Below are positions 10,455-29,182 of a stretch of DNA of 64,000 nucleotides, piece after piece. Position 1 is the stretch's first letter; every line of letters starts with the position of its first letter. Where the stretch lies: the sequence record NZ_CP043850.1. One strand, 5' to 3'. Both the position numbers and the translations under genes were made by a program. The notes under the pieces are model-generated. The model saw only the letters and a list, made by a program, of their open reading frames with translations, had not been told where the DNA came from and made no database searches. The stretch comes from a plasmid.

Positions 10455-10479
10455 ACCCCCTGTCTGAAAGGAACACCCC

Positions 10480-10773: not shown

Positions 10774-10792
10774 GCCAGGAAGGACACGACCG

Positions 10793-13881: not shown

Positions 13882-15749
13882 TCCACGCCCGCACACTGAC
13901 GTTGGCCGCCGGGGTCACCGTCCTGGCCGCCCAGCTCTGGGCCGCTCCGGCCGCCCTCGCAGCCCCCAGGGACGGGGCGCCCGCGCAGGGCTCGGGGGTG
14001 ATGGGCCTGGACGAGTGGCGCGCGCAGGTCACGGACACCGCCGGCGTGCCCATCGAGAAGTACCGTGCTCTGCCTCTGGACCACGGAACCGCGATCGAGC
14101 TCGACATCGAGCACTCCATGAAGCGCTCGGCTCTGGTCTCCATCCTGGACCTGCTGTGGGGGATCCACTACGAGATCGTCACCACCGTGATGTGGCTGTT
14201 GCACACCCTGCTCTCCTTCGAGTGGGTCGGCTGGTTCGCCGCCCCCATGGAGTCCTTCGGGGCTGCGGTGGGCCAGATGGTCGCACAGATCCACTGGATT
14301 CCCCTGGCCTCGATGATCAGCGGTCTGGCGATTGCGTTGCTCTTCGCTGCCCGCAAGCGCGGAGCGGCATGGGGAGAGCTGGCTCTGAGCGTGACGATGG
14401 TCATCGTGGCCACCAACATGGCATTGAACCCGGTGGCCTACGTCACCGGCGACAACGGCGTGCTCACCAAGGCCGAGGAGGCCGCCGGCCAGATCAGCGT
14501 CGAGATCGCCGGCGGCGCCGACCAGCTGGATTCCGGGGCCAGCGCCTCGGAGGTCATGGGGCAGACGCTCACCGCGGATCTGACCGACATGCTCATGCGC
14601 GGACCCTCGCAAGCAGTGGCGTTCGGTGAGTCCCTCACCGGGGAATGTGACGCCGTCTTCACCCAGACCATGAGCGAGTCCGACCCGATGAAGGTCGAGG
14701 AGAAGACGGTGATGGACCCGATCAAGGACTGCAGCGAGTCCGCGGCCAGCTGGTCCGAGTCCATCTCCTTCACTCGCATCGCCCCGATGGTGATGATCAA
14801 CCTGGGGTCCCTGGCGTTCAGTGCCATGGCCTTCGTGCTCGGTCTCGTACTGATCGTGGCTGTGCTGATGGCCCTGTTCTACGCGCTCTACCAAGGGTTG
14901 GCGGTGCTGGTGGCAATCCTGCCCCTCCGCAGCCGACTGGGCTTCTTCAACGCCTTCATCGGCGTGCTGGCCTGCGCGGTGGGCATCGTGGCCGCGATCG
15001 TCACCGTGAGCCTGTGCCTGCAGCTGCTCAAGGAGCTCCTGGCGGTCACCGCGGGGCTGGGCGTGACGGTGCAGATGCTGCTGATGGTCATCGTGCTCGT
15101 CGTGCTGTGCTTCCTGATCTTCCGCGCCTATGGGGCATCCCGGGCCAAGGGGCGCGCTCTGGCCCGGTGGCTGTCGGGGCTGGGCCTGTCCAAGCAGGGC
15201 GGCAGCAACAAGGTCAAGGCACTGGCCGGCGCCGGCGGCGCCGCTGCGGCCGGATACAAGGCCCGCAAGTGGATCGAGCAGCGCAGAGGCAAGACCGAGA
15301 CCGAGGAGACCGGCCGACCTCGGGCGGGCCTGCGCACGGCCGGCGGAGGACCAGATGCCGCAGCCCAGCCTGGCGCCGGACCACGGCGTCCAGGGCCTGG
15401 GCCCACCCGTCCGGGGCTGCCGACAGCCCCGGTGCTGCGGGCCGTCGGCACGGGCGCGGCCGGCGTGGGCGGCCCCTGGGGAGCGGCCGCCGGCGCAGCC
15501 GCTCACCTTGCAGCGTCTCGCCTCGAGAGGGGGGCGCACCGTCGTGAGCTGGCGGCCCCGCGGCCGCGCAAGGTCGAGCGCTTCTCCCGCATCCAGATCG
15601 ACAAGAACGGGCAGGCGGTCGTGAACCCTCCTCGCCGCGAGGTCGTCGAAGGCACTGTCGTGCCCCCGCATCAGGGACCGCGGCCTCGGCAGCAGTCCTC
15701 CGAGGCGACTCGGCGCATGCGTGAGCGGCTGCACCAGGAGCATCCGTGA
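13878..15749 (+). CDS. polytopic membrane protein (VirB6/TrbL/TcpH-like) with Gly/Ala/Pro-rich C-terminus
   Basis: 623-aa ORF with at least 6 TM helices and a low-complexity basic tail. Start overlaps the VirB4 stop (ATGA). Confidence 0.6.
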   Translation: MIHARTLTLAAGVTVLAAQLWAAPAALAAPRDGAPAQGSGVMGLDEWRAQVTDTAGVPIEKYRALPLDHGTAIELDIEHSMKRSALVSILDLLWGIHYEIVTTVMWLLHTLLSFEWVGWFAAPMESFGAAVGQMVAQIHWIPLASMISGLAIALLFAARKRGAAWGELALSVTMVIVATNMALNPVAYVTGDNGVLTKAEEAAGQISVEIAGGADQLDSGASASEVMGQTLTADLTDMLMRGPSQAVAFGESLTGECDAVFTQTMSESDPMKVEEKTVMDPIKDCSESAASWSESISFTRIAPMVMINLGSLAFSAMAFVLGLVLIVAVLMALFYALYQGLAVLVAILPLRSRLGFFNAFIGVLACAVGIVAAIVTVSLCLQLLKELLAVTAGLGVTVQMLLMVIVLVVLCFLIFRAYGASRAKGRALARWLSGLGLSKQGGSNKVKALAGAGGAAAAGYKARKWIEQRRGKTETEETGRPRAGLRTAGGGPDAAAQPGAGPRRPGPGPTRPGLPTAPVLRAVGTGAAGVGGPWGAAAGAAAHLAASRLERGAHRRELAAPRPRKVERFSRIQIDKNGQAVVNPPRREVVEGTVVPPHQGPRPRQQSSEATRRMRERLHQEHP

Positions 15750-17512
15750 GCACGGGTAAGCAGGAAGAGCACCACGAGCCAACCGGTGCCGCAGGGGCAC
15801 GAGCGCGCCGGGCGGTGATCATGGTCGCCGCCTCGATCGTCCTCTGCATCGGACTGCTCATCGTGCTGGTGCTGGGCCTGGTCATGTTCACCGGCGCCGG
15901 CCTGGAGAAGAAGCGACAGCAGGATCTGGCCGCGAGCACCTGTCTGGCCCCGGAGGTGGCAGCAGGGGTCGCCGGCGACGGCTCGGTCGCGGTGCCCGTG
16001 GCGGGGATCGTCACCAGCATGTTCGGCCCCCGAGACAACCCGTTCGGCCCGGGCGGCGGTGGAGGCGGCTCCGGGCTGACCAACCACGTCGCCGTGGACA
16101 TCGGGGCGCCGGAAGGCACCCCGATCTACGCGGCCATGGACGGCACCGTGGACGTGGTCTCTCTCGGCGGGCAGGAGGACGGCAACGGCGTTCTCATCGA
16201 CAGCGGGGGAGGGGTGAAGATCCTGTACTGGCACGCAGCCAACAACACGATCCGGGTCAAGGAAGGCGACGTCGTCAAGGTCGGTCAGCACATCGCCGGA
16301 GTCGGAGACACCGGCGTCGCCACCGGCTACCACCTGCACATGGAGGTGCGAGTCAATGGGGAGAAGATCGACCCGGCGGCCTTCTTCCGGGAGCGCGGTC
16401 TGATCTTCGAGCTGCGCAAGCCTCCCCGGCTGGTGGAGACCGCACGCAAGACGGGCGCCAGCGCCTCATCCTCGGCCACGTCCGCCTCGGCTGAACCCTC
16501 TCAGGGGCAGAACGATCCCACCCAGCTGCAGACCGAGCAGGTGAAGGTGATGTTGCCCGAGGGCATCGAGTACGAGCTCAAGCCCGAGCAGATCCGCAAC
16601 GCCGCGGCCATCATCGGCGCCGGCCAGGCCGCGGAGGTCTCCGACCAGGCGATCATCGTGGCGCTGATGACGGCGCTGCAGGAGAGCATGCTCTACAACC
16701 TCGCCTCCCCTGCGGTCCCGGAGTCGCTGGCCTACCCTCACGACCGGCAAGCGGTGAACAAGGCCTCGGTCGGGTTGTTCCAGCAGCAGTACACGATGGG
16801 GTGGGGTCCGGTGGCGGACCTGATGCAGCCGTCGATCTCAGCGCGGACCTTCTACCTAGGGAGGGAGAACCCGAATGATGCGCCAGCGCTGGGGCTGCTG
16901 GACTACCCCGGATGGGAGAGCATGCACCCGGGAGTGGCCGCGCAGGTCGTGCAGAAGAGCGCCCACCCCGACGCCTACATCAAGTGGGAGCAGACCGCCA
17001 CGCAGATCCTCTCGCAGGTGACCGGAACCGCGCCGGTGCCCTCGGCCTGTTCAGGTCCGGCGGTGCCTGCAGGCGAACAGCCCGGCCCAGCCGATGGAGC
17101 TCGCGCCCGGGACGAGAGCACCCTGGACCTGCAGATCCCTGCTGGTCTCAGCCGTGAGGACATCGTCGCGGCCGCGGAGTCCGGTGTGGGCGGGGCCTTC
17201 ACGTACGGCGCCGCCGACTTCCAGTCCTGGGACTCCAGCGGGTTCGTCTACTGGGTCTACCGGGATCAGGGAATCGAGATGCCGCGCACCTCCCCGTGGG
17301 CGGCCGGTGAGCGCACGCAGACGCCCCAGCCCGGCGACCTGGTCGCTCAGCAGTGGAACGCCCAGCGCCAGCGGTGGGACCACGTCGGGATCTACGTGGG
17401 CGACGGGATGATGATCTCCGCCATCAACGAGGACGCCGGTACCCGCAAGCACCCGGTCACCCAGACCGGTGAGTCTCCCGTCTACTTCACCATCCTCAAG
17501 GAGCAGCAGTGA
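15746..17512 (+). CDS. secreted peptidoglycan hydrolase: M23 metallopeptidase + NlpC/P60-like domains (VirB1/TcpG-like)
   Basis: 588-aa ORF. M23 motifs HVAVDIGAPEGTPIYAAMDG and GYHLHMEV are present. The C-terminal domain has an NlpC/P60-like pattern (...GFVYWVY...HVGIYVGDGMMISA) but reads D-S-S-G where D-C-S-G is canonical. N-terminal TM/signal. Confidence 0.8.
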   Translation: MSTGKQEEHHEPTGAAGARARRAVIMVAASIVLCIGLLIVLVLGLVMFTGAGLEKKRQQDLAASTCLAPEVAAGVAGDGSVAVPVAGIVTSMFGPRDNPFGPGGGGGGSGLTNHVAVDIGAPEGTPIYAAMDGTVDVVSLGGQEDGNGVLIDSGGGVKILYWHAANNTIRVKEGDVVKVGQHIAGVGDTGVATGYHLHMEVRVNGEKIDPAAFFRERGLIFELRKPPRLVETARKTGASASSSATSASAEPSQGQNDPTQLQTEQVKVMLPEGIEYELKPEQIRNAAAIIGAGQAAEVSDQAIIVALMTALQESMLYNLASPAVPESLAYPHDRQAVNKASVGLFQQQYTMGWGPVADLMQPSISARTFYLGRENPNDAPALGLLDYPGWESMHPGVAAQVVQKSAHPDAYIKWEQTATQILSQVTGTAPVPSACSGPAVPAGEQPGPADGARARDESTLDLQIPAGLSREDIVAAAESGVGGAFTYGAADFQSWDSSGFVYWVYRDQGIEMPRTSPWAAGERTQTPQPGDLVAQQWNAQRQRWDHVGIYVGDGMMISAINEDAGTRKHPVTQTGESPVYFTILKEQQ

Positions 17513-18315
17513 CCACTCAGAGCCCCGCCCCCCAGGAGCCTGCTGGCCATGGCCGCGTGTGGCCCTACCTCGCCGGTGCCGCCGCCGCGGCAGCCCTCGG
17601 GGTCAGCCTGTTCGCCATGGGATCAGACCCGGAGCCCTCACCGACCCCAGCGGCCTCCGCGGGGTCAGCGCAGGCGCGCGTCAGCGAGGCGCCCACGGCG
17701 CCGGTCACCTCCCCGGCGACCTCGGCTGCCCCGTCCAGTTCCCCCTCCCCGGCCTCGAGCAGTCGGGACACGGGTCGGGAAAAAAGCTCGCAGACCCCGA
17801 TCGACCTGTCTGGAAAAGGCCAGGTCAGCGAGGAATCGGTCAGTCCTGAGCGGGAGGCGCAGATGCAGGTGGAACAGCAGGCTCAGGCCCGGGCCGTAGC
17901 GGGCGCAGACGCCTCGAGCCGGCAGCGGGCGGAGCAGGTGGCCGAGGCCTTCGTGCTCGCCTCGAATGAGCGCACCTGGCAGACCGGGCGGCAGCAGTGG
18001 GTGCAGCGACTGCAGCAGCTGGCGACCCCTGGGGTGGTGGAGAGCGTGAACGTGGACCAGGACTGGGAGTCGGACAGCCAGCGCCGCTACGTCGAAGCCA
18101 AGGCCGAGACCACCACGCAGATCCAGCAAGTCCAGGCGCAGACGCTCACCAACGATGGGCAGATCGAGGTGGAGGTCGAGTTCGTCACCGAGACCGACAG
18201 CGAGGACCCCTGGGTGAGCAACCCTCCGGTGCGCAAGTCCTTGGTTCTGGTGGTCGATCCAGCCCAGGGCATGGTCGTCGACCAGCTGGACATGACCCCC
18301 AGAGGCGGTTTGTGA
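17509..18315 (+). CDS. membrane-anchored Ser/Pro-rich protein, last gene of transfer operon
   Basis: 268-aa ORF. N-terminal TM, a PS-rich linker, then a C-terminal globular region. GTGA-type overlap with the upstream gene. Confidence 0.45.
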   Translation: MTTQSPAPQEPAGHGRVWPYLAGAAAAAALGVSLFAMGSDPEPSPTPAASAGSAQARVSEAPTAPVTSPATSAAPSSSPSPASSSRDTGREKSSQTPIDLSGKGQVSEESVSPEREAQMQVEQQAQARAVAGADASSRQRAEQVAEAFVLASNERTWQTGRQQWVQRLQQLATPGVVESVNVDQDWESDSQRRYVEAKAETTTQIQQVQAQTLTNDGQIEVEVEFVTETDSEDPWVSNPPVRKSLVLVVDPAQGMVVDQLDMTPRGGL

Positions 18316-18491
18316 GCGCCGACTGAGGCCCCTCGTCTAGGGCGTCCACTCGCACAGGGTGGGCGCCCTTGATGCTGTCCGGGCTGTGGCGATGGGGGAC
18401 GGCGTGGTCAAGCCCCTCGTGATGGCGTAGACGGCCAGGAGCGCCAGGGGTCCTGGGGCCGGGCGAAGCGGGGCACGGGGGAAGGCGCGCC

Positions 18492-18560
18492 GGTTGTCGA
18501 GATGCAGCGAAGAGTTCACACGACGCGCGGTGAACTCTTCGCATATCAGGCGGGATCCGG
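18492..18560. repeat. left-type terminal-inverted-repeat copy (GGTTGTCGAGATGCAGCGAAGAGTTCAC...GCGGGATCCGG) with internal 11-bp stem hairpin
   Basis: About 70% identical over about 70 bp to 57502-57570, and over 25-50 bp to 40752-40800 and 38243-38285. Contains the perfect palindrome GAAGAGTTCAC-N10-GTGAACTCTTC (18509-18540). Confidence 0.6.
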
Positions 18561-18782
18561 TCGGCGTGAAATCTGGGTGTCCCGGTGGGCGCTCCCGCGC
18601 GCCCCAGGGCCCGCCAGAAACGTACGGGCGGCTGCCGCTCTGGCGGGTCGGTTGTGGCGAGTCATGTGGCGGGCGGACAGGGTCGGATGTGGCGCGCACG
18701 GCGCATGGCGGGGTTGTCAACGTCGGCCGAATATTGACCCCTTATCGTCGTTGAATTTTGACCCCCTCGAATTGATGTGTTG

Positions 18783-19562
18783 TTACTTGCCCGCGGGTTG
18801 TGCGGGGGTCTTGAGGAGCTCGCGGCGTGCCCTGGTGCGGTAGGAGTCCCCGCCGAGGGTGAGGACTTCCGCGTGGTGAACGAGTCGGTCGATCATCGCG
18901 GCCGCGACGATGTCGTCGGAGAAGATCTCACCCCATCTGCCGAAGGGCATGTTGCTGGTGAGCACGATCGAGCCTTGCTCGTAGCGGGACGCGATGAGTT
19001 GGAAGAACAGGTTCGCGGCGTCCGCGTCGAATGGCAGGTAGCCGACCTCGTCGATGATCAGCATCCGGTAGCGGCGGAGTCGTTTCAGCTCATGCTCGAG
19101 CCGGCCGGCTGCGTGCGCGGCCTGGAGTCGGCCAGCCCAGCCGGTCGCGGTATCGAACAACACCGGGTATCCAGCGTGCGCGGCTTTGATGCCGAGGCCG
19201 ATCGCGAGGTGTGTTTTGCCGACACCGGGTGGGCCGAGCAGGATCACGTTCTCCGCTTTCGGGATGAACGTTGTCGTCGCGAGGTGAGCGAGGACATCGC
19301 GACGCAGCGAGGGCTGATGGTCGGCGTTGAAGTCGTCCAGGGTCTTCACCGCGGGGAAGTGAGCGCCCGCGATTCGCAGTGTCGTTCCGTTCGCTTCCCG
19401 GTCCGCGACCTGGCGTTACAGGACCGCGGTGAGGTATTCCTCGTGGGACCAGCCCTCGGTGCGGGCTTGATCGCCGAGGGTCTCCCAGACCCGGCCGATC
19501 GTGGGGGTCTTCAACGCCCGGGTCAGGTATCCCATCGTCGCCGCGATCTCCGTTTCGGGCAT
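18783..19562 (-). pseudogene. istB: IstB helper ATPase gene inactivated by nonsense mutation (copy 1)
   Basis: Copy 2 encodes the full 259-aa IstB (GPPGVGKTHLA Walker A). In copy 1 codon CAA is TAA (plus-strand TTACAG at 19417-19422 versus TTGCAG at 24531-24536). This leaves a 71-aa N-terminal ORF and a 188-aa internal-Met ORF (18783-19349). Confidence 0.8.
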
Positions 19563-20821
19563 CAGAGGACCTCACCGGTTCGAGGATCGACAGGGAAATC
19601 GACGCCGAACAACTCGTCGTAGTCGGGCAGTTCCCGAAACACCACGCTGGCCGCTGGCTGCCCGCGATGGTGCAGTCGTTCTCGGTCGCGTTTCGCGGCG
19701 CTGAACGTGGAGCGCAGCCCCCTCGCGATCTCGACGTGGACAGGGTCGATGACGGTCGCGTGTTTCGCCCAACAGCGTTCGTGGTCAGCGACGGTGCGGC
19801 CATCGCAGATCACGATCACTCGTGTCAGCGTGGCCGTCACATCCACCAGCCGCCCAATCACGCGAGGGTCAACGGAGTAGTCGTTGGCATCGATGCGGAC
19901 GTAGTAGTCCCGCGCCAATCGGACCCGGTTTCGCAGCCCCGTCACCGGCGGCAGCGGCGGCAACACGGTCATCGCCTGCAGATCCCGCTCCACCACGTCG
20001 ATAGGTCGCCCGCCCAGCGAGCGGATCGTGCGGGAGTTCGCCCGCGGGAGCCACTCCGCGAGTTGGCTGTTGAAACTGTCCGGTGACGCGAACGACCGCC
20101 CGGGCAGGAACGATGTCTCCATGTACTGGTTGTTGCGTTCGGTCATGCCCTTGAACTCCGGATCCCGCGGAGGGGCGAGCACGATCCTCGTCGCCAACGT
20201 TCCCGCGAACGCGGCCGCGGCCTGCGTGACAGTCCCCTTCCCCCCGATCGCGGCCTCACGATCCCAGACGAGCGTCTTCGAGACCCGCCCGACACGAGAG
20301 ATCAGCTGCCACATCCCCGCGACCAGATCGCCCGCCTGCCGGGACGGGAGCATCACCGCGGACAGGAACCGGGAGAACGTCAACGTCATCACGAGCACCG
20401 GCAGCATCAACGCTTGCCCATGCCCGACAGGGATCCGCGGCTCCGGGAACCACAGATCCATCTGCGCGCTCTCGCCAGGAAGATGAATCAGACGATCCGC
20501 GGGATCGACCCCGGCATACTCCGGACGAATCGTCCGGATCCGATCCTTCAGAATCGTGATCGAGTGTTCCCACCCGATCCGCTCCGCGATCACCGTCGCC
20601 GGCATCCTCGCATCCACCACCAAGAGCTTGCGGATCTCGGGCTCCGCAGCGTCAACGAGTGACCCTTTCCCTGCCCGCTGATACGACGGCGGCGTCTCTG
20701 ACGCCAACGCCGACCGCACCGTATTTCGCGCCACACCGAGCCGACGCACGATCTCCTTGATCGACACGCCCTCCGCCCGATGCAACCGCCTGATCTCTGC
20801 CCACTGTTCCAAATTGATCAC
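19562..20821 (-). CDS. istA: IS21-family transposase IstA
   Basis: 419-aa ORF with N-terminal HTH (MINLEQWAEIRRLHRAEGVSIKEIVRRLGVARNTV) and a DDE catalytic core. Overlaps the istB start. Confidence 0.9.
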   Translation of the reverse strand: MINLEQWAEIRRLHRAEGVSIKEIVRRLGVARNTVRSALASETPPSYQRAGKGSLVDAAEPEIRKLLVVDARMPATVIAERIGWEHSITILKDRIRTIRPEYAGVDPADRLIHLPGESAQMDLWFPEPRIPVGHGQALMLPVLVMTLTFSRFLSAVMLPSRQAGDLVAGMWQLISRVGRVSKTLVWDREAAIGGKGTVTQAAAAFAGTLATRIVLAPPRDPEFKGMTERNNQYMETSFLPGRSFASPDSFNSQLAEWLPRANSRTIRSLGGRPIDVVERDLQAMTVLPPLPPVTGLRNRVRLARDYYVRIDANDYSVDPRVIGRLVDVTATLTRVIVICDGRTVADHERCWAKHATVIDPVHVEIARGLRSTFSAAKRDRERLHHRGQPAASVVFRELPDYDELFGVDFPVDPRTGEVL

Positions 20822-20893
20822 CCTCCAAAGGATGCCCGGAAGGGGTCAAAATTCCCCGACGCTCAGGGGTCAGTATTCACGCGTCGTCGACAG

Positions 20894-21664
20894 CACCCGC
20901 TCGGAAAGCCACCCGTCGCTCCGCTTCTGTCGGCCGTCGCCGCGGAGGCTGCGGGCACGTTCGTCCTCGTGTTCGGAGTCATCGGAGCGGCGACCTTCTC
21001 CGCATCCTTTTCGAAGTCGGATGTCGCGGTGAACATCGGATTCCTCGGCGTCGCCTTCGCGCTCGGGCTCAGCGTGCTCGTCGGCGCCATCGCCTGGGGC
21101 CCCGTGTCGGGCGGCCACTTCAACCCTGCCGTCACGCTCGGATTGGCGACCGCCGGATTCTTCTCGTGGCGCCGCGTCCCGGCCTACATCGCGTCGCAGT
21201 TCGTGGGTGGGCTACTCGCGTCCACCGCACTTGTTCTCGTTGCGGCGGGCACCAGCACGGAATTCCTGTCAGACGCTCGAAAGAGCGGATTCGCGTCCAC
21301 CGGCTGGGGACCGCTCTCACCAAGCGGGGCCTCCTGGGAGGCGGCGTTCCTCATCGAGGCGGTCACCACGGCCGTGCTCATGGCGGTCGTCCTCGCCGTC
21401 TCCACTCGTCGCACGGACGCGACGCTCGCGCCGCTGGCCATCGGGTTCACGCTGACGGTGGCGGCGCTCGTCGCGATCCCGATCTCGAACGGCTCTTTCA
21501 ACCCGGCCCGCTCGATAGCGACCGCCGTCTACGGGGGCCCTGTCGCGCTCGAGCAGTTGTGGCTCTCGCTCGTCGCGCCAACCCTCGGCGCGGCGCTGGT
21601 CGGCCTCGTCGTGACAGCGGTCCGCCACCTCGCGCCGCGAGCGAGGAGAAGCTCCTACATCTGA
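20894..21664 (+). CDS. aquaporin/MIP-family channel (AqpZ/GlpF-like), 5' end replaced by IS21 sequence
   Basis: Two NPA boxes (GHFNPAVT, GSFNPARS) and six TM helices. The in-frame ORF continues 38 codons into IS21 copy 1. No ATG/GTG/TTG start lies between the IS border (20892) and TM1 (AAGTFVLVFG). Confidence 0.65.
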   Translation, partial: HPLGKPPVAPLLSAVAAEAAGTFVLVFGVIGAATFSASFSKSDVAVNIGFLGVAFALGLSVLVGAIAWGPVSGGHFNPAVTLGLATAGFFSWRRVPAYIASQFVGGLLASTALVLVAAGTSTEFLSDARKSGFASTGWGPLSPSGASWEAAFLIEAVTTAVLMAVVLAVSTRRTDATLAPLAIGFTLTVAALVAIPISNGSFNPARSIATAVYGGPVALEQLWLSLVAPTLGAALVGLVVTAVRHLAPRARRSSYI

Positions 21665-22299
21665 GTGCGGTGCGTGTTCCATCCCGGAGATCCGGGACGG
21701 CGTGACGCTTATGCGGCCGCGTCGACGACCTTCGTCGCGCGGTATGTACTCACGGCGCGGAGGACGGCAGGTGTTGCATGCTGGACGACCCTCAAAGCGC
21801 CGGTCGCGATCTGGAGCCGGCGCTGCACGGCCGCGTCGGCAGCCATCTTCAGGCCGATCTCTATGCCACGTTCGATCCCAACGGCAACGCCGCGGTTGAA
21901 GCCGAGACCGTAAACAGGACTTCCCATGAGTGCTCCCCAGATTGAGTGGTGCTGTCGAGCGTAGTGAGATCCGGGAGCGCCAGACCGTGAGGTGGCTGGG
22001 ACTTCAGGCGGAATCGTCAGGCTGTCGGCGCATCCTCGTTCACCGACGGAGGCACCGGCCCACGAGCGGCACGTACGCCAGCCCTGTACGCGCGCATCTC
22101 CCGTCGCGCGAATCGCTGATGGACGAACCATTCCCGAATGGTTCGTCCCAGACGGCGGCGGCGGACGTCGTCGACAAACATCAGCCATCCCACCCGAACC
22201 GACCGTGCCCGCTGCGTGACCTTGTTGTCGGACGGGTCCGAGACGAGCAACCATCGTTGCACCTGCACGTCCGGGCTGGAGCGCGGCTCCGCGAGCTCG

Positions 22300-22785
22300 T
22301 CAACATGGTCTTCCAAAACCCCGACGATGACGTTGCGGCGTTGCTCCGGGTATGCCCATTCCCTCGTGACGCGTTGCGCGCGAGCGAGGGTGAATTCGTA
22401 CTCCGTGCGCGCAATCGGTTCCATGCCCGGTCGGCAGTGCGGGTAGCAACTGCTCCGCGGTGTGACCCAGCTTCCGGAGGAACGCCTCGACCTCGCCCCG
22501 CTGACGTTGCGCGCGAGGAGACGTCACGCGGTCACTCCACAATCGCACCGCGTCACCGTACTGACGGGCGAAGTCCGACCGCGCCAGCCCGTCTTCGCGG
22601 CCGGCGAGCGACAACGCCGACACGGCGATGGCGAACTCGTCTCCGACAGACCGGTCGAGCTGGAAGTCACGATTGGAGCGAGCCTCGCGGCTGGCGTCGC
22701 GTGCGATGACCAATCCGACCAGAGCAAGGATCACCGACAGCAGAGACGCGATGACCTGGATCCAGGTCGCGAAGGCGTTGTCCAC
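22300..22785 (-). CDS. hypothetical membrane-anchored protein (possibly frameshifted with 22017-22424)
   Basis: 161-aa ORF with an N-terminal TM (IQVIASLLSVILALVGLVIA). It overlaps a second same-strand ORF (22017-22424) in another frame. Coding status uncertain. Confidence 0.25.
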   Translation of the reverse strand: MDNAFATWIQVIASLLSVILALVGLVIARDASREARSNRDFQLDRSVGDEFAIAVSALSLAGREDGLARSDFARQYGDAVRLWSDRVTSPRAQRQRGEVEAFLRKLGHTAEQLLPALPTGHGTDCAHGVRIHPRSRATRHEGMGIPGATPQRHRRGFGRPC

Positions 22786-22882
22786 AGACGAACAGTATCG
22801 TCAGGACGCCGCATTCTTCCTTCCAAGAATGCAGAAGAGGTGCACCCGGATCCCGGGTGCACCTCTTCTACTGCGCCGCTTC

Positions 22883-23719
22883 TTACTTCTGGATGAAGGC
22901 GAGGAGGTCAGGGTTGATGACCTCGGCGTGCGTGGTCAGCATGCCGTGCGGGTAGCCGGCGTACAGCTTCAGCTCAGAGTTCTGGAGGAGCTCGTGCTGC
23001 AGGAGCGCGGCGGCCTTGTAGGGAACGACCTGGTCGTCGTCGCCCTGCATGACGAGAACGGGGACCGTGATGGCCTTGAGGTCTTCGGTCTGGTCGGTCT
23101 CGGAGAAGGCCTTGATGCCCTCGTAGTGAGCGAGCGCGCTGCCCGTCATGCCCTGACGCCACCAGTTCGCGACGACCGGCTCGGACACCTCGACACCGTC
23201 GCGGTTGAAGCCGTAGAACGGACCCGACGCCACGGCCTGGAAGAACTCGGCACGGTTGGCGGCGAGAGCGGAACGGAAACCGTCGAGGACCTCGATGGGC
23301 GTGCCCTCGGGGTTGCTGTCGGACTTCAGCATGATGGGAGGAACCGAGGAGACGAGCACGGCCTTGGCGACACGACCCTGGGGCTGACCGTACTTGGCGA
23401 CGTAGCGAGCGACCTGGCCGCCGCCGGTGGAGTGGCCGATGTGGATGGCGTTCTGCAGGTCGAGGTGCTCGACGACGGCGTTCACGTCGCTGGCGTAGTG
23501 GTCCATGTCGTGGCCGGTGCTGATCTGCGACGAACGTCCGTGGCCGCGGCGGTCGCTGGCGACGACGCGGTAGCCCTTCGAGAGGAAGTAGAGCATCTGT
23601 GCGTCCCAGTCGTCGGACGACAGCGGCCAGCCGTGGTGGAACACGATGGGCTGGGCGTTCTTGTCGCCCCAGTCCTTGAAGTAGATCTCTGCGCCGTCTT
23701 CGGTGGTGATGTATCCCAT
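22883..23719 (-). CDS. alpha/beta-hydrolase, non-haem haloperoxidase/esterase-like
   Basis: 278 aa from MGYITTEDGAEIYF. Nucleophile elbow IGHSTGG plus HGWPLSSDDW and C-terminal Asp/His. Typical bromoperoxidase A2 / chloroperoxidase fold. Confidence 0.8.
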   Translation of the reverse strand: MGYITTEDGAEIYFKDWGDKNAQPIVFHHGWPLSSDDWDAQMLYFLSKGYRVVASDRRGHGRSSQISTGHDMDHYASDVNAVVEHLDLQNAIHIGHSTGGGQVARYVAKYGQPQGRVAKAVLVSSVPPIMLKSDSNPEGTPIEVLDGFRSALAANRAEFFQAVASGPFYGFNRDGVEVSEPVVANWWRQGMTGSALAHYEGIKAFSETDQTEDLKAITVPVLVMQGDDDQVVPYKAAALLQHELLQNSELKLYAGYPHGMLTTHAEVINPDLLAFIQK

Positions 23720-23896
23720 GATGAGTCCTTTGTCATGTCGTCGAACGAGCAAGCCCGCGCGACTGGTGGGTAGTTTGCGCCTCGACGATGTGGCGACTGC
23801 ATTCACGGTAACTTTCGGGCGCCCGCGATGTCAACGTCGGCCGAATATTGACCCCTTATCGTCGTTGAATTTTGACCCCCTCGAATTGATGTGTTG

Positions 23897-24676
23897 TTAC
23901 TTGCCCGCGGGTTGTGCGGGGGTCTTGAGGAGCTCGCGGCGTGCCCTGGTGCGGTAGGAGTCCCCGCCGAGGGTGAGGACTTCCGCGTGGTGAACGAGTC
24001 GGTCGATCATCGCGGCCGCGACGATGTCGTCGGAGAAGATCTCACCCCATCTGCCGAAGGGCATGTTGCTGGTGAGCACGATCGAGCCTTGCTCGTAGCG
24101 GGACGCGATGAGTTGGAAGAACAGGTTCGCGGCGTCCGCGTCGAATGGCAGGTAGCCGACCTCGTCGATGATCAGCATCCGGTAGCGGCGGAGTCGTTTC
24201 AGCTCATGCTCGAGCCGGCCGGCTGCGTGCGCGGCCTGGAGTCGGCCAGCCCAGCCGGTCGCGGTATCGAACAACACCGGGTATCCAGCGTGCGCGGCTT
24301 TGATGCCGAGGCCGATCGCGAGGTGTGTTTTGCCGACACCGGGTGGGCCGAGCAGGATCACGTTCTCCGCTTTCGGGATGAACGTTGTCGTCGCGAGGTG
24401 AGCGAGGACATCGCGACGCAGCGAGGGCTGATGGTCGGCGTTGAAGTCGTCCAGGGTCTTCACCGCGGGGAAGTGAGCGCCCGCGATTCGCAGTGTCGTT
24501 CCGTTCGCTTCCCGGTCCGCGACCTGGCGTTGCAGGACCGCGGTGAGGTATTCCTCGTGGGACCAGCCCTCGGTGCGGGCTTGATCGCCGAGGGTCTCCC
24601 AGACCCGGCCGATCGTGGGGGTCTTCAACGCCCGGGTCAGGTATCCCATCGTCGCCGCGATCTCCGTTTCGGGCAT
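23897..24676 (-). CDS. istB: IS21-family helper ATPase IstB (intact)
   Basis: 259 aa with Walker A GPPGVGKTHLA and Walker B LLIIDEVGY. Confidence 0.9.
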   Translation of the reverse strand: MPETEIAATMGYLTRALKTPTIGRVWETLGDQARTEGWSHEEYLTAVLQRQVADREANGTTLRIAGAHFPAVKTLDDFNADHQPSLRRDVLAHLATTTFIPKAENVILLGPPGVGKTHLAIGLGIKAAHAGYPVLFDTATGWAGRLQAAHAAGRLEHELKRLRRYRMLIIDEVGYLPFDADAANLFFQLIASRYEQGSIVLTSNMPFGRWGEIFSDDIVAAAMIDRLVHHAEVLTLGGDSYRTRARRELLKTPAQPAGK

Positions 24677-25935
24677 CAGAGGACCTCACCGGTTCGAGGA
24701 TCGACAGGGAAATCGACGCCGAACAACTCGTCGTAGTCGGGCAGTTCCCGAAACACCACGCTGGCCGCTGGCTGCCCGCGATGGTGCAGTCGTTCTCGGT
24801 CGCGTTTCGCGGCGCTGAACGTGGAGCGCAGCCCCCTCGCGATCTCGACGTGGACAGGGTCGATGACGGTCGCGTGTTTCGCCCAACAGCGTTCGTGGTC
24901 AGCGACGGTGCGGCCATCGCAGATCACGATCACTCGTGTCAGCGTGGCCGTCACATCCACCAGCCGCCCAATCACGCGAGGGTCAACGGAGTAGTCGTTG
25001 GCATCGATGCGGACGTAGTAGTCCCGCGCCAATCGGACCCGGTTTCGCAGCCCCGTCACCGGCGGCAGCGGCGGCAACACGGTCATCGCCTGCAGATCCC
25101 GCTCCACCACGTCGATAGGTCGCCCGCCCAGCGAGCGGATCGTGCGGGAGTTCGCCCGCGGGAGCCACTCCGCGAGTTGGCTGTTGAAACTGTCCGGTGA
25201 CGCGAACGACCGCCCGGGCAGGAACGATGTCTCCATGTACTGGTTGTTGCGTTCGGTCATGCCCTTGAACTCCGGATCCCGCGGAGGGGCGAGCACGATC
25301 CTCGTCGCCAACGTTCCCGCGAACGCGGCCGCGGCCTGCGTGACAGTCCCCTTCCCCCCGATCGCGGCCTCACGATCCCAGACGAGCGTCTTCGAGACCC
25401 GCCCGACACGAGAGATCAGCTGCCACATCCCCGCGACCAGATCGCCCGCCTGCCGGGACGGGAGCATCACCGCGGACAGGAACCGGGAGAACGTCAACGT
25501 CATCACGAGCACCGGCAGCATCAACGCTTGCCCATGCCCGACAGGGATCCGCGGCTCCGGGAACCACAGATCCATCTGCGCGCTCTCGCCAGGAAGATGA
25601 ATCAGACGATCCGCGGGATCGACCCCGGCATACTCCGGACGAATCGTCCGGATCCGATCCTTCAGAATCGTGATCGAGTGTTCCCACCCGATCCGCTCCG
25701 CGATCACCGTCGCCGGCATCCTCGCATCCACCACCAAGAGCTTGCGGATCTCGGGCTCCGCAGCGTCAACGAGTGACCCTTTCCCTGCCCGCTGATACGA
25801 CGGCGGCGTCTCTGACGCCAACGCCGACCGCACCGTATTTCGCGCCACACCGAGCCGACGCACGATCTCCTTGATCGACACGCCCTCCGCCCGATGCAAC
25901 CGCCTGATCTCTGCCCACTGTTCCAAATTGATCAC
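24676..25935 (-). CDS. istA: IS21-family transposase IstA
   Basis: Identical to 19562-20821. Confidence 0.9.
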   Translation of the reverse strand: MINLEQWAEIRRLHRAEGVSIKEIVRRLGVARNTVRSALASETPPSYQRAGKGSLVDAAEPEIRKLLVVDARMPATVIAERIGWEHSITILKDRIRTIRPEYAGVDPADRLIHLPGESAQMDLWFPEPRIPVGHGQALMLPVLVMTLTFSRFLSAVMLPSRQAGDLVAGMWQLISRVGRVSKTLVWDREAAIGGKGTVTQAAAAFAGTLATRIVLAPPRDPEFKGMTERNNQYMETSFLPGRSFASPDSFNSQLAEWLPRANSRTIRSLGGRPIDVVERDLQAMTVLPPLPPVTGLRNRVRLARDYYVRIDANDYSVDPRVIGRLVDVTATLTRVIVICDGRTVADHERCWAKHATVIDPVHVEIARGLRSTFSAAKRDRERLHHRGQPAASVVFRELPDYDELFGVDFPVDPRTGEVL

Positions 25936-26080
25936 CCTCCAAAGGATGCCCGGAAGGGGTCAAAATTCCCCGACGCTCAGGGGTCAGTATTCACGCGTCG
26001 TCGACAGGGGTCCCTCGCCACAAACGACCGAATCTGTCGAGTCAGTTGCAGAGCGCCGGGGTCAAGGGAACGACTCCGCC

Positions 26081-26647
26081 TTAGCGGGGATGGCGGAGGC
26101 CGCGTGACCGTGCGATGAGGCAGACCAGCAGCCCGAGGGCTGCTGCCGTACTGGCAAGGTGGATCGGCCACGCCCACGGGCTGTGGTCGCCCCCGGAGAT
26201 CATGTAGGTGTCGGCCAGGCCCAATCCCATACCGAAGGAGGCCACCCAGTAGGCAGGGGCCGCGGCGGTAAGCAATCCCAGGCCCATGGTCAGGAGCATC
26301 AGAGGGTCGATCCGTGGCCGGCGCCGGGCCAGGCGACCCAGCACGAGGGCGCCGCCGATTCCTGCGAAGAAAGCGAGCGCGGGGAAGGCCGCCAGCTCGA
26401 ACACGCTGACCTGCGGGGCCAAGTCAGCATAGATCTGGGTGAGGCTACGGTCTGCGGGTGCTGCGGCCAGCGGGTTGAGGACGAGGGTCTGCAATGCCCC
26501 GAGGAGGGCCAACATCGCCAGGAGGGAGGGGATCGCAGTGCGTGTCGCCGGACCCATCCACGCAGGCCTAGCGGAGGCGGGTGAGCCGCCAGCGGTGCGG
26601 GGCTCGACCGGGCCCGGGCGGGCAGAAGGCGGGAAAGGGCGCGACAT
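26081..26647 (-). CDS. hypothetical polytopic membrane protein
   Basis: 188-aa ORF with 4-5 predicted TM helices. Start uncertain (Pro/Arg-rich N-terminus may be an over-extension). Confidence 0.4.
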   Translation of the reverse strand: MSRPFPPSARPGPVEPRTAGGSPASARPAWMGPATRTAIPSLLAMLALLGALQTLVLNPLAAAPADRSLTQIYADLAPQVSVFELAAFPALAFFAGIGGALVLGRLARRRPRIDPLMLLTMGLGLLTAAAPAYWVASFGMGLGLADTYMISGGDHSPWAWPIHLASTAAALGLLVCLIARSRGLRHPR

Positions 26648-26799
26648 GGGCTCACTCTAGGGCCATCCCCGCGCCTGGCCCTCGGTGACCAAGCAGGGTG
26701 CAGGCGCATTGGCTGGGCATCTGGCTGAGTTGCAGCGGATGGCCCAACTGGCTTCGCCCACTGGCGCGTCTTCGGGACGACGCAAACGACCGAATCTGC

Positions 26800-27297
26800 C
26801 TAATCGACGGGCTGGAATCCAAGTTTCTGGTAGATCCCCATGGCCGCCTCGGAGGTGCCCTCGCCGAAGCGCAGACTCAGGGCGGGGTCGCCGGCGGCGG
26901 AGCAGACGTCGACGGCGTGCTGCACCAGGGCGCGCCCGACCCCCTTCCCGCGCGCGGCGGGATCGGTGAAGAGGTCAATGATGAACGGCCCCGCGAGGTC
27001 CGCGTCCCAGATCGAGTGGGTGACCACCATGATCGCCCCGGCCAGGCGGCCGTCCACCCACGCCGAGGCGCTCGCGTCGGCGCGCAGCTCCCCGTAGTCG
27101 CCGCGGAAGGTCGCCTCCATCTCCTCCCGCGCTTCGGCCAGGTCGGAGGCGGCGACGCCCGGTGGGTAGGCGGCGAGGTAGCACCGGGCCAGGTCATCGG
27201 CCGTCCCCGCGTCCAGTCCTCGGAGCTCGAGGCTTCCAGGGGCGTGGTCAGCGGAGTGGGTCGGCGGCAGGTGAAGGGTCAGCAGGTCAGTAGACAC
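26800..27297 (-). CDS. GNAT-family N-acetyltransferase
   Basis: 165 aa with acetyl-CoA-binding motif A (RGKGVGRALVQHAVDV) and a C-terminal YQKLGF. Confidence 0.65.
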   Translation of the reverse strand: MSTDLLTLHLPPTHSADHAPGSLELRGLDAGTADDLARCYLAAYPPGVAASDLAEAREEMEATFRGDYGELRADASASAWVDGRLAGAIMVVTHSIWDADLAGPFIIDLFTDPAARGKGVGRALVQHAVDVCSAAGDPALSLRFGEGTSEAAMGIYQKLGFQPVD

Positions 27298-27708
27298 AGG
27301 GGTTCCTCTCGTGATGGTTGGCTACTCACAGTGATGCCGTCACAGAGTGAACATGGTCAGAACGATAACAGCGCACACCTGCTCTCGGAATGAGTCGAGT
27401 CGGTCGGAACATGAGTGACCTATGCATGTCCAAGCAATGCACGCGCTGGCAGTTCGTTTCGGTGGCGGGGATTGGGCCAGCCACAAACAACCGATATGGG
27501 CGTTCAGCGAGGGGGTGAGTCGGTCTCTGCGGATCGGGGGGTCACCGCGGGGAGGTCACAGGGGAGCTTCACGACTGTCCGACTCGCGGCGACGCTTGGT
27601 GATCGCAGTCCGAAAGATGAGCGGCACGATCCCGAGGACGAAAAGACCCCAGCCCACCAGGGCGCGCCATTCCATCTGCGAGTTGGAGAGAACAAGGCTC
27701 CCGGCGAG

Positions 27709-29129
27709 AGTTGAGTCCCGCATAGTGGTGTAGCGCCCGGTGGTCGGGCGTGTCGTCTCAGACGTGGACGCGGCCACCGTGTGATCCGTCGAGTCAACCT
27801 TCCACAGAATCCTCGAATGGAGTCATCACGATGACCGCTCCTCATATTCTCGACCCTGCCGGCCTGCTCGGAGAAGCCCTGTCTGAAGCGTCCCCGGACA
27901 TGATGCGCCATCTGCTGCAGACCATGATCAACACCTTGCTGTCCGCGGATGCCGACGCGGTGGTCGGTGCCGAATGGGGCAAGCCCAGCTCCTCGCGCAC
28001 TGCTCAGCGGAACGGGTACCGCCACCGGGACCTGGACACCCGGGTCGGCACCCTGGACGTGGCCATCCCCAAGCTCAGATCGGGCACGTACTTCCCGGAC
28101 TGGCTACTTGAACGCAGGAAGAGAGCGGAGTCGGCGCTGATCACCGTGGTCGCTGACTGCTACCTCGCCGGGGTCTCGACCCGACGGATGGACAAGCTGG
28201 TCAAGACTCTGGGCGTCAACGCCCTGTCCAAGTCCCAAGTCTCCCGGATGGCCACCGAGCTCGACGAGCAGGTGGAGGCCTTCCGCCACCGGCCGCTCGG
28301 GGAGGCGGGACCGTTCACGTTCGTTGCCGCGGACGCGTTGACGATGAAGGTGCGTGAGGGCGGGCGTGTGGTCAACGCGGTGGTGCTCATCGCCACCGGG
28401 GTCAACGGCGACGGCCACCGCGAAGTGTTGGGCCTGCGGGTGGCCACCAGCGAGACCGGGGCGGCGTGGAACGAGTTCTTCGCCGACCTGGTCGCCCGGG
28501 GCCTGGCCGGGGTCCGGCTGGTCACCTCTGATGCCCACCCCGGGCTCAAGGACGCCATCGCCGCGAACCTGCCCGGTGCGGTGTGGCAACGCTGCCGCAC
28601 CCACTACGCGGCGAACCTGATGGGCATCACCCCGAAGAGCATGTGGCCGGCGGTGAAGGCCATGCTCCACTCGGTCTACGACCAGCCCGATGCCGCCAGC
28701 GTCAACGCCCAGTTCGACCGGCTGCTGGACTACGTGAGCGAGAAACTGCCGGTGGTGGCCGAGCACCTCGATGCTGCCCGGGCCGACATCCTGGCGTTCA
28801 CCACATTCCCCAAGGACGTCTGGACCCAGATCTGGTCGAACAACCCGGCCGAGCGGCTCAACCGCGAGATCCGCCGCCGCACCGACGCGGTGGGCATCTT
28901 CCCCAACCGGGCGGCCATCGTCAGGCTAGTGGGTGCGGTGCTGGCCGAGCAGACCGATGAATGGGCCGAGGGTCGACGCTACCTCGGTCTCGAAGTCCTG
29001 GCCCGCTGCCGACTCACCACCGTGACCAACACCGGAGACGAGGTGGACCCCGACACCGAACTCAACCTCGGCCTCAGCGCCTGACCCCCATGAAGGATCA
29101 GACCGCTACACCATCACGAGGGGCTTGAC
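27709..29129 (+). mobile_element. IS256-family insertion sequence (about 1.42 kb) with 8-bp target-site duplication
   Basis: Imperfect about 27-bp terminal IRs (AGTTGAGTCCCGCATAGTGGTGTAGCG / rc GGTCAAGCCCCTCGTGATGGTGTAGCG). Flanked by the direct repeat CCGGCGAG (27701-27708 and 29131-29138). Encodes a mutator-type transposase. Confidence 0.8.
27831..29084 (+). CDS. IS256-family (mutator-type) transposase
   Basis: 417 aa from MTAPHILDPAGLL, RBS GGAG upstream. Conserved IS256 transposase blocks (DxxVxTxxGxREVLG, ...WQRCxxH, NxxERxNReIRRRT). Confidence 0.85.
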   Translation: MTAPHILDPAGLLGEALSEASPDMMRHLLQTMINTLLSADADAVVGAEWGKPSSSRTAQRNGYRHRDLDTRVGTLDVAIPKLRSGTYFPDWLLERRKRAESALITVVADCYLAGVSTRRMDKLVKTLGVNALSKSQVSRMATELDEQVEAFRHRPLGEAGPFTFVAADALTMKVREGGRVVNAVVLIATGVNGDGHREVLGLRVATSETGAAWNEFFADLVARGLAGVRLVTSDAHPGLKDAIAANLPGAVWQRCRTHYAANLMGITPKSMWPAVKAMLHSVYDQPDAASVNAQFDRLLDYVSEKLPVVAEHLDAARADILAFTTFPKDVWTQIWSNNPAERLNREIRRRTDAVGIFPNRAAIVRLVGAVLAEQTDEWAEGRRYLGLEVLARCRLTTVTNTGDEVDPDTELNLGLSA

Positions 29130-29182
29130 CCCGGCGAGCCATAGCGCCATGGTCAGCAAGGTGAGGCCCCAGTAGGTTCGCT

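What the first reader, a model, noticed from the sequence alone, without database searches (positions are those of the whole stretch)
18715..26006. Two identical IS21-family copies in direct orientation forming a composite-transposon-like unit; one copy carries a nonsense mutation and the cargo aquaporin has lost its 5' end
2178-bp copies at 18715-20892 and 23829-26006 bracket an aquaporin gene, a hypothetical gene and a haloperoxidase-like hydrolase. The only difference noted between copies is CAA to TAA in istB of copy 1 (plus strand TTACAG at 19417-19422 versus TTGCAG in copy 2). This inactivates the helper ATPase and implies copy 1 depends on copy 2 in trans. The aquaporin ORF lacks its own start and reads 38 codons into the IS. 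So the IS either truncated it, or supplies a fusion start or outward promoter. No clean target-site duplications are visible. That would fit the structure arising by homologous recombination between IS copies rather than a single composite transposition.
Basis: seen in the sequence. Interest (0 to 1): 0.55.

Follow-up and report, generated by a model that had tools for sequence, protein, structure and literature searches.

The report
IS21-family composite transposon carrying aquaporin
Two near-identical IS21-family insertion sequences have captured a 2.9-kb piece of a Microbacterium chromosome (a beheaded aquaporin gene, an unknown gene and a hydrolase) and move it as one 7.3-kb composite transposon, which here landed in a Micrococcus conjugative plasmid; it is a clear but ordinary example of a known kind of mobile element.

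Summary
The observation mostly holds. The 2178-bp copies at 18715-20892 and 23829-26006 differ at one base (19418 A vs 24532 G), which gives Gln49->TAA in istB of copy 1. The aquaporin has lost its first 41 coding bases to the IS.

The statement "no clean target-site duplications" is wrong. A perfect 5-bp repeat, GGGGT, flanks the whole unit (18710-18714 and 26007-26011). A Micrococcus plasmid contig that is 100% identical on both sides carries the empty site with a single GGGGT.

The same 7292-bp unit, with identical cargo, sits at five or more other sites in Micrococcus genomes and metagenomes. Each site has its own perfect 5-bp duplication.

The cargo is 2936/2936 identical to a contiguous locus on long metagenomic contigs (dcd, aquaporin, hypothetical, hydrolase). 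The intact 270-aa aquaporin there is 269/270 identical to that of Microbacterium oxydans.

So this is a class-I composite transposon that inserted as a unit. It did not arise here by homologous recombination. Recombination between the IS copies does appear at two other sites, where single-IS derivatives keep the same duplication.

IS21-family composite transposons are already known (Tnceh, TnC5ppsal). This is a new member of a known kind and of modest interest.

The parts
18710..18714 (.). Left copy of the 5-bp target-site duplication (GGGGT)
   Evidence: The pentamer occurs once at the empty site in L052-L058.
18715..20892 (-). IS copy 1 (2178 bp, IS21 family). Its istB-side end faces outward and its istA-side end abuts the aquaporin.
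   Evidence: 2177/2178 identical to copy 2. Terminal inverted repeats lie at 18715-18768 and 20839-20892, start TGT...ACA, and each holds two GAATAYTGACCCC / GAATTTTGACCCC repeats.
18783..19562 (-). istB of copy 1, inactivated by Gln49->TAA (codon at 19416-19418, SNP at 19418)
   Evidence: Gene callers split it into 48-aa and 188-aa pieces in other assemblies.
19562..20821 (-). istA of copy 1 (intact, 419 aa from GTG; a 416-aa form from TTG has better Shine-Dalgarno spacing)
   Evidence: scored on the identical copy 2 protein; for the start region.
20780..21664 (+). IS::aquaporin fusion ORF (294 aa). About 38 IS-encoded codons (the 38th straddles the IS boundary at 20892/20893) replace the native first 14 codons. 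The native aquaporin Z-like part is 20894-21664.
   Evidence: NCBI records it as aquaporin WP_135040286.1 of Micrococcus luteus.
20893..23828 (.). Cargo, 2936 bp: truncated aquaporin, ORF(s) of unknown function (21930-22709 + or 21709-21927 -) and an alpha/beta hydrolase
   Evidence: 2936/2936 identical to contiguous DNA in metagenome contigs L036-L039, and to the cargo in L002, L003, L005 and L008.
21930..22709 (+). Hypothetical ORF (259 aa) with no family match
   Evidence: no hits. It is called as a gene in the ancestral locus.
22883..23719 (-). Alpha/beta-fold hydrolase (278 aa as called; the ORF is open to 23806)
   Evidence: Abhydrolase_1, 1e-34; no NCBIfam model reaches its cutoff, so the specific function is unknown. 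One search gives the gene call.
23829..26006 (-). IS copy 2 (2178 bp), with intact istB (23897-24676) and intact istA (24676-25935). The genes overlap in TGATG.
   Evidence: It is 100% identical to solitary copies in L004, L009 and L010.
26007..26011 (.). Right copy of the 5-bp target-site duplication (GGGGT)

Best explanation
Window 18715-26006 is a 7292-bp class-I composite transposon. It consists of two directly oriented copies of one IS21-family insertion sequence around a 2936-bp cargo.

Origin of the cargo. It is a piece of a Microbacterium oxydans-group chromosome, trapped when two IS copies came to lie on either side of it. One copy landed 41 nt inside the aquaporin gene. The other landed 109 nt upstream of the hydrolase gene.

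Movement. The unit then moved as a whole. IstA transposase acted on the two outermost IS ends, the istB-side end of copy 1 and the istA-side end of copy 2. It would have needed the IstB AAA+ helper, supplied by copy 2 or by another copy in the cell, because istB of copy 1 is a Gln49 stop. The unit pasted into an intergenic site of a Micrococcus conjugative plasmid and duplicated 5 bp (GGGGT).

Shown here: the structure, the duplication, the empty site, the donor locus, repeated insertion at other sites, and loss of the cargo by IS x IS recombination at two other sites.

Inferred: the catalytic roles of IstA and IstB, which follow from established IS21 biology, and the order of the capture events.

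Unresolved: whether the beheaded aquaporin is expressed as the 294-aa IS fusion (ATG 20780) or is a silent passenger.
For: (1) The copies are 2177/2178 identical. IstA and IstB both pass the NCBIfam IS21 cutoffs.

(2) The 5-bp repeat GGGGT flanks the whole unit.

(3) Contig L052 is 100% identical to window 8000-18714 and 26007-27708, and the two matches overlap by exactly that pentamer. L053-L058 also carry the uninterrupted site.

(4) The same unit with 100% identical cargo occurs at five further sites where both flanks could be read. Each has a different perfect 5-bp duplication: TTGTC, AGGTC, GCCTC, CGGAA and GAGCA. Two more distinct left flanks were also seen. Solitary copies likewise show 5-bp duplications, CATGC and TGCCG.

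(5) The istB nonsense allele is in the aquaporin-side copy in all five isolate assemblies. The hydrolase-side copy is wild type in the window, L002, and L005/L043. A pre-formed heteroallelic unit was therefore copied to new sites.

(6) The cargo is 2936/2936 identical to a contiguous locus on metagenomic contigs of up to 569 kb. The intact aquaporin there starts 41 nt upstream of the cargo boundary and is 269/270 identical to M. oxydans WP_058630801.1.

(7) The backbone proteins are Micrococcus proteins and the insertion is intergenic (gene calls).
Against: - No transposition assay or read-level data were available.
- Most comparison contigs are short-read drafts or metagenome assemblies. In these, SNPs within a 2.2-kb repeat can be mis-assigned. 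Some assemblies show both copies nonsense or both wild type (L003, L008, L042, L045, L046).
- The donor configuration, with IS copies sitting in the Microbacterium locus, was not found.
- The end product would look the same if a circular IS-plus-cargo molecule had entered by a cointegrate-type route.
Confidence: 0.85

Rival explanations
1. One reading: a solitary IS first inserted at this site. The second copy and the cargo were then added by RecA-type homologous recombination with a circular IS-plus-cargo molecule (or with another replicon), not by transposition of the composite.
For: Direct IS repeats do recombine in these genomes. L004 and L006 carry one IS at exactly the sites and duplications where L002 and L005 carry the composite. 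This is compatible with the reverse reaction too. A pre-existing solitary IS would also leave a 5-bp duplication around the final structure.
Against: Seven related plasmid contigs carry the empty GGGGT site and none carries a solitary IS there. This route would require a prior solitary insertion at each of six sites. With random crossover points, the nonsense SNP (offset 704 of 2178) would end up in the aquaporin-side copy in only about 10% of integrations into a wild-type resident copy. It is there in 5 of 5 isolate assemblies.
Confidence: 0.06
2. Cointegrate-type entry. A 5114-bp circle (one IS plus cargo), excised by IS x IS recombination, fused with the plasmid either by replicative transposition or through the IS21-style tandem (IS)2 junction pathway. 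This regenerates IS-cargo-IS with a 5-bp duplication.
For: By established knowledge, IS21 itself fuses replicons through tandem copies, and that leaves the donor flanked by direct IS copies plus a duplication. Some assemblies carry the same istB allele in both copies (L003, L008, L042, L045, L046). Contig L047 reads cargo-IS-cargo.
Against: Duplicating a single IS would make the two copies identical. In the window, L002, and L005/L043 they differ at the nonsense site, in the same arrangement each time. L047 and the homoallelic metagenome contigs are what repeat collapse in short-read assembly produces. No tandem IS-IS junction was seen in any locus.
Confidence: 0.07
3. Assembly artefact: the 5.1-kb direct duplication is an expansion or misjoin of a single IS next to the cargo.
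For: Repeats of 2.2 kb are hard to resolve with short reads, and no reads are available here.
Against: The same IS-cargo-IS order, with unique flanks on both sides, is present in at least five independent isolate assemblies and several metagenome assemblies. The two copies differ by a SNP. Both outer junctions and both inner junctions are unique sequences. The duplication and the empty site fit exactly.
Confidence: 0.02

Closest known systems
Tnceh (ISRsp3-cehA-ISRsp3, Rhizobium sp. AC100 plasmid pAC200) and related IS21-family catabolic composite transposons such as TnC5ppsal and the IS1600-flanked cbn cluster, as reviewed in PMC6723655
   Same: Two copies of an istA/istB (IS21-family) element bracket captured genes as a class-I composite transposon. 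In Tnceh, homologous recombination between the flanking copies deletes the cargo and leaves the IS behind. That is what L004 and L006 show here relative to L002 and L005.
   Different: The host phylum differs: Actinomycetota (Micrococcus, Microbacterium) rather than Proteobacteria. The cargo has no evident catabolic or resistance role, being a 5'-truncated aquaporin, an unknown ORF and an uncharacterised hydrolase. One flanking copy has a fixed istB nonsense mutation. The IS sequence is unrelated at the DNA level to anything in the plasmid collection.
IS21 of plasmid R68 / R68.45 (prototype of the family; comparison from established knowledge, not tested here)
   Same: An istA (HTH plus DDE/rve transposase) and an istB (AAA+ helper) with overlapping stop and start codons. 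The element is about 2.1-2.2 kb, has TG...CA termini and carries multiple short repeats within each end. It makes a short target duplication.
   Different: IS21 typically duplicates 4 bp and is best known for replicon fusion through tandem (IS21)2 junctions, where an outward promoter forms across the abutted ends. Here the duplication is 5 bp and no tandem junction is seen. The adjacent gene abuts the istA-side end, so the known junction-promoter arrangement does not apply.
ISMlu14, the IS21-family element of Micrococcus luteus NCTC 2665 listed in ISfinder (mentioned in PMC11707576)
   Same: The same family and the same host genus. An ISMlu14-like copy is reported on the Micrococcus linear plasmid pLMA1.
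   Different: Identity to ISMlu14 could not be tested, because ISfinder is not available here. The IS found no Micrococcus plasmid match in the plasmid collection, only short 39-71-nt Streptomyces matches. It may therefore be a different element.
IS26 / IS257 pseudo-compound transposons and translocatable units (PMC7986276)
   Same: Direct IS copies flank the cargo. Single-IS and IS-cargo-IS states alternate at the same site.
   Different: It is a different family, IS6, with a single transposase and 8-bp duplications. That family moves by replicative or conservative cointegration, which yields identical flanking copies. Here the flanking copies are heteroallelic, and the whole unit carries its own new duplication at each site.

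Membership tests
IS21 family insertion sequence | Two consecutive genes: istA (HTH plus DDE/rve transposase) followed by istB (AAA+ helper ATPase) | tested here: met
   IstA: NF033546, 185.3 bits (cutoff 160), plus rve, Mu-transpos_C_2 and HTH. IstB: NF038214, 280.4 bits (cutoff 200), and PF01695 at 4.7e-72. The stop and start overlap in TGATG at 24674-24678.
IS21 family insertion sequence | Length about 2-2.7 kb, imperfect terminal inverted repeats ending 5'-TG...CA-3', and repeated sub-terminal motifs (multiple IstA binding sites) | tested here: met
   The element is 2178 bp. The arms are 54 nt and 80% complementary, running TGTCAAC... to ...GTCGACA. Each end holds two copies of GAATAYTGACCCC / GAATTTTGACCCC. 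Binding by IstA was not tested.
IS21 family insertion sequence | Short direct target duplication (4-8 bp in the family) on insertion | tested here: met
   Perfect 5-bp duplications flank solitary copies (L009 CATGC, L010 TGCCG, L004 TTGTC, L006 GCCTC) and the composite at six sites. The empty site was verified.
IS21 family insertion sequence | Transposition requires both IstA and IstB | not testable with these tools
   This needs a genetic assay. The only relevant observation is that the composites in the window, L002, L005 and L043 keep one intact istB.
Class-I composite (compound) transposon | Two copies of the same IS flank unrelated cargo DNA | tested here: met
Class-I composite (compound) transposon | The target duplication brackets the whole unit and not each IS, with a matching empty site | tested here: met
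   The outer flanks are GGGGT / GGGGT. The inner flanks, GCACC and CGCGA, are unrelated and are contiguous with the cargo in the ancestral locus. L052 carries the empty site with 100% identical flanks.
Class-I composite (compound) transposon | The unit is found at more than one genomic location, which is evidence of mobility as a unit | tested here: met
   Six sites with both flanks and two more with the left flank only, all with identical cargo.
Aquaporin Z (MIP family) | A six-TM MIP fold with two NPA motifs and full-length coverage of the family model | tested here: inconclusive
   PF00230 at 3.3e-37, covering profile positions 8-221 of 222. Both NPA motifs are present (HFNPAV, SFNPAR). The intact homologue scores 200 bits against the AqpZ equivalog, below its cutoff of 256. 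In the window the native start, 14 codons and upstream region are missing, so expression and function are unknown.

The most novel reading that the evidence does not exclude
The IS-aquaporin junction may not be dead cargo. A promoter and the ATG at 20780, both inside the istA-side end of the IS, would drive a 294-aa chimeric aquaporin. Its 38 IS-encoded N-terminal residues would replace the native cytoplasmic tail. Expression of this channel, or of the hydrolase, would then give Micrococcus a selective benefit. That benefit would explain why the unit is so widespread: the fusion ORF is indexed in 121 blocks of the collection, many from apparent skin metagenomes.
Probability: 0.2. Interest if true: 0.45.

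Novelty: new member of a known kind. Interest (0 to 1): 0.28.

Why it matters
This case is unusually complete. The donor locus, the empty target site and multiple independent insertions can all be read from sequence alone.

It documents very recent gene flow from a Microbacterium chromosome to Micrococcus replicons and plasmids, with zero substitutions in 2.9 kb. It shows that an IS21-family element is currently active as a compound transposon in Actinomycetota. It also shows that a unit with one dead istB still spreads.

On the practical side, it explains three conflicting RefSeq start calls for one "aquaporin" in Micrococcus (294, 245 and 231 aa). None of them is the native start.

It does not reveal a new mechanism.

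Tried and rejected
- Plasmid collection, megablast with the IS. Only 39-71-nt hits in Streptomyces, so no named relative was found.
- Plasmid collection with the reconstructed empty site. Only about 80% matches to the peptidase gene of Micrococcus plasmids. The empty site came instead from an exact-protein look-up.
- Exact look-ups of the 307-aa hydrolase ORF and the 188-aa flanking ORF. Neither is on record, probably because the called starts differ.
- Two metagenome scans for the presumed donor junctions, with the IS end abutting the upstream half of the aquaporin or the DNA beyond the hydrolase. No match, so the original two-IS configuration in Microbacterium remains hypothetical.
- Sigma-70 promoter and terminator scan of 20500-21100. 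Nothing was found. This is uninformative for actinobacterial promoters, so IS-driven aquaporin expression is neither supported nor excluded.
- Literature searches for this element in Micrococcus. No description was found.
- The 44-nt inverted repeat 18387-18430 / 29106-29149 was considered as the ends of a larger transposon enclosing the composite. It was rejected. The right arm is the end of a separate IS256-family insertion with its own 9-bp duplication, and the left arm is backbone sequence also present in the empty-site plasmid.


Full report
**1. The observation**

An in-register comparison of 18655-20952 with 23769-26066 shows identity from 18715 to 20892 (equivalent to 23829-26006), apart from one position: 19418 is A and 24532 is G. 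The flanks on both sides are unrelated. The repeat finder gives the same 5114-bp spacing and 54-nt terminal inverted repeats, 80% complementary, at both ends of each copy.

Each copy encodes the following on the minus strand:
- A 419-aa IstA. It matches NCBIfam NF033546 "IS21 family transposase" at 185 bits (cutoff 160), and Pfam rve, Mu-transpos_C_2 and HTH.
- A 259-aa IstB. It matches NF038214 at 280 bits (cutoff 200) and PF01695 at 4.7e-72.

The SNP turns istB codon 49 from CAA to TAA in copy 1.

Between the copies lie three features:
- a MIP/aquaporin ORF;
- a 259-aa ORF with no family match;
- an alpha/beta hydrolase. No specific NCBIfam model reaches its cutoff for it, so the "haloperoxidase-like" label is not supported beyond the fold.

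The aquaporin frame has no ATG, GTG or TTG between the IS boundary (20892) and the first transmembrane helix. It stays open back to ATG 20780 inside the IS.

**2.

The five bases left of copy 1 (GGGGT, 18710-18714) recur immediately right of copy 2 (26007-26011). The inner junctions, GCACC and CGCGA, match neither each other nor the outer ones. So the duplication brackets the unit as a whole.

**3. The empty site**

An exact-protein look-up with the 268-aa ORF just left of the element returned related plasmid contigs. These carry RepA_C, TcpC, a VirB4-like ATPase and an M23/NlpC-P60 peptidase.
- Contig L052 is 100% identical to window 8000-18714 and to window 26007-27708. The two alignments overlap in L052 by exactly five bases, the single GGGGT.
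- Six further contigs (L053-L058) also read ...GCATGGCGGGGTCCCTCGCC... without interruption.
- The insertion point lies between called genes.
- The backbone peptidase is catalogued as a Micrococcus / M. luteus protein. The conjugation module is about 80% identical to known Micrococcus plasmids.

The window is therefore a Micrococcus conjugative plasmid that received a 7292-bp insertion with a 5-bp target duplication.

**4. The unit is mobile as a unit**

The exact IstA and the 294-aa fusion ORF occur on many contigs. BLAST of the IS and the cargo against these loci shows the same IS-cargo-IS arrangement with 100% identical cargo. After orienting the junctions, I read these duplications:

| Site | Loci | 5-bp duplication |
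|---|---|---|
| Composite | window | GGGGT |
| Composite | L002 | TTGTC |
| Composite | L003 / L007 / L044 | AGGTC |
| Composite | L005 / L042 / L043 | GCCTC |
| Composite | L008 | CGGAA |
| Composite | L045 / L046 (L050 shares the left flank only) | GAGCA |
| Solitary IS | L009 | CATGC |
| Solitary IS | L010 | TGCCG |

L048 and L049 add two further left flanks. That makes six different sites, each with a perfect 5-bp duplication. A chance match of five bases is of the order of 1 in 300-1000 per site, so this establishes transposition of the composite.

Names attached to these sequences place them in Micrococcus luteus, M. yunnanensis and Micrococcus sp. KRD070. A few "Shigella" and "Salmonella" records are presumably contamination (my inference).

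**5. Recombination is secondary**

L004 carries one IS at exactly the L002 site and duplication (TTGTC). L006 carries one IS at the L005 site (GCCTC). L004 has the wild-type istB allele and L006 the nonsense allele. This is the expected outcome if the directly repeated copies recombined on either side of offset 704 and looped out the cargo. The same behaviour is reported for the IS21-family transposon Tnceh (PMC6723655).

The reverse route is homologous integration of an IS-cargo circle into a resident IS. It would place the nonsense SNP in the aquaporin-side copy in only about 10% of events if crossovers were random. The SNP is in that copy in all five isolate assemblies. The hydrolase-side copy is wild type in the window, L002, and L005/L043.

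The conserved heteroallelic arrangement also argues against routes that duplicate a single IS. These are replicative cointegration and fusion through a tandem junction, and both would give identical copies.

Caveat: SNP phasing inside a 2.2-kb repeat is unreliable in short-read drafts. Some metagenome assemblies show both copies alike.

**6. Where the cargo came from and what happened to the aquaporin**

A homology search with the non-IS part of the aquaporin found P0001. It is 270 aa and 100% identical over all 256 residues. Its N-terminus reads MSSPKPALRRRLHP|HPLGKPPVAPLLSAV....

P0001 is encoded on metagenomic contigs of up to 569 kb. The local gene order is dcd, aquaporin, 72-aa / 259-aa ORFs, alpha/beta hydrolase, then an MLTR_LBD regulator. 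The window's cargo is 2936/2936 identical to that stretch.
- The left cargo boundary falls 41 nt after the native ATG.
- The right boundary falls 109 nt upstream of the hydrolase start as called.

The intact protein is 269/270 identical to Microbacterium oxydans WP_058630801.1. The identical IstA is also listed for Microbacterium profundi.

The simplest history is that two IS copies inserted around this segment in a Microbacterium oxydans-group chromosome, one of them beheading the aquaporin. The resulting compound element then reached Micrococcus very recently, since there are no substitutions. I could not find the donor configuration itself.

**7. State of the aquaporin**

The gene has lost its promoter, ribosome-binding site and 14 codons. 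Both NPA motifs and all six helices remain.

Three start sites have been annotated in public records: 294 aa from the IS-internal ATG, 245 aa from a CTG, and 231 aa from a GTG inside TM1. None is the native start.

A consensus promoter scan of the junction found nothing, which says little for actinobacteria. The well-known IS21 outward promoter forms across abutted right and left ends in tandem copies (established knowledge). It cannot act here, because the gene abuts the istA-side end.

Expression as a chimera is possible but untested. With zero divergence from the donor, selection cannot be assessed.

**8. Mechanism, with steps marked**

Shown:
- the composite structure;
- the outer 5-bp duplication;
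- the empty site;
- six sites with both flanks read;
- the donor locus;
- single-IS derivatives at two of the composite sites (same duplication), read as cargo loss by recombination.

From family knowledge:
- IstA (DDE) cuts and joins the outermost ends;
- IstB (AAA+) is required for target capture;
- a premature stop at codon 49 removes the ATPase domain, so copy 1 is not autonomous.

Inferred:
- IstB is supplied by copy 2 or another resident copy;
- the composite was assembled in Microbacterium.

Confidence that this is a unit-transposed composite transposon is about 0.85.

**9. Comparison and novelty**

IS21-family composite transposons are documented. Examples are Tnceh with ISRsp3, TnC5ppsal and the IS1600-flanked cbn genes (PMC6723655). 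I found no description of this element.

ISMlu14 is the listed IS21-family element of M. luteus (PMC11707576). Identity to it could not be tested.

This is a new member of a known kind. It is a good, complete example, but mechanistically ordinary.

Noticed in passing
window 27709-29129 (transposase 27750-29084 +); duplication at 27700-27708 and 29130-29138: A second recent insertion relative to the empty-site plasmid L052. It is an IS256-family (Transposase_mut) element of 1421 bp, flanked by a 9-bp target duplication CCCGGCGAG that L052 carries once.
   Followed up: yes
window 26019, 26781, 27482 and 38199 (all + strand); also L052-L058: The motif C[AG]CAAAC[AG]ACCG occurs four times where 0.02 are expected, always in the same orientation. 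In related plasmids the sequence diverges immediately after CGCCACAAACGACCG. The motif therefore marks boundaries of variable accessory modules, perhaps as a site-specific recombination site. The composite inserted 7 bp to its left.
   Followed up: partly
window 18407-18425 (and the longer imperfect match 18387-18430 versus 29106-29149): A 19-nt exact copy of the right-end sequence of the IS256-family element (GTCAAGCCCCTCGTGATGG) sits in the plasmid backbone, about 290 bp left of the composite. It is also present in the empty-site plasmid. It may be a solo IS end or a remnant.
   Followed up: partly
window 32000-34000; ORF 31867-33783 (-): A low-GC island (50-52% against about 68%) encodes an AAA_15 / AAA_21 (AbiEii-like) ATPase. 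A MmeI-like restriction-modification gene lies downstream of the corresponding ATPase in the related plasmid L052, so this is probably an acquired defence module.
   Followed up: no
L001 9930-12107 (3.5-Mb contig, GCA_977010785.1): A solitary copy of the same IS with five substitutions and no target duplication (flanks GTGCT / CGTTC). It lies next to fragments of another IS21-family element. This may reflect recombination between copies or an adjacent deletion.
   Followed up: no
L047 (5820-bp metagenome contig): The contig reads cargo(1184-2936)-IS-cargo(1-1054) and then unrelated sequence. It is either a collapsed repeat or circular-permutation assembly of the 5114-bp unit, or a further rearrangement inside the cargo.
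   Followed up: no
public records for window 20780-21664: The same truncated aquaporin is annotated with three different starts in RefSeq and GenBank (294, 245 and 231 aa). Exact copies of the IS and aquaporin proteins also appear under Shigella and Salmonella names, which probably reflects Micrococcus contamination of those assemblies.
   Followed up: partly
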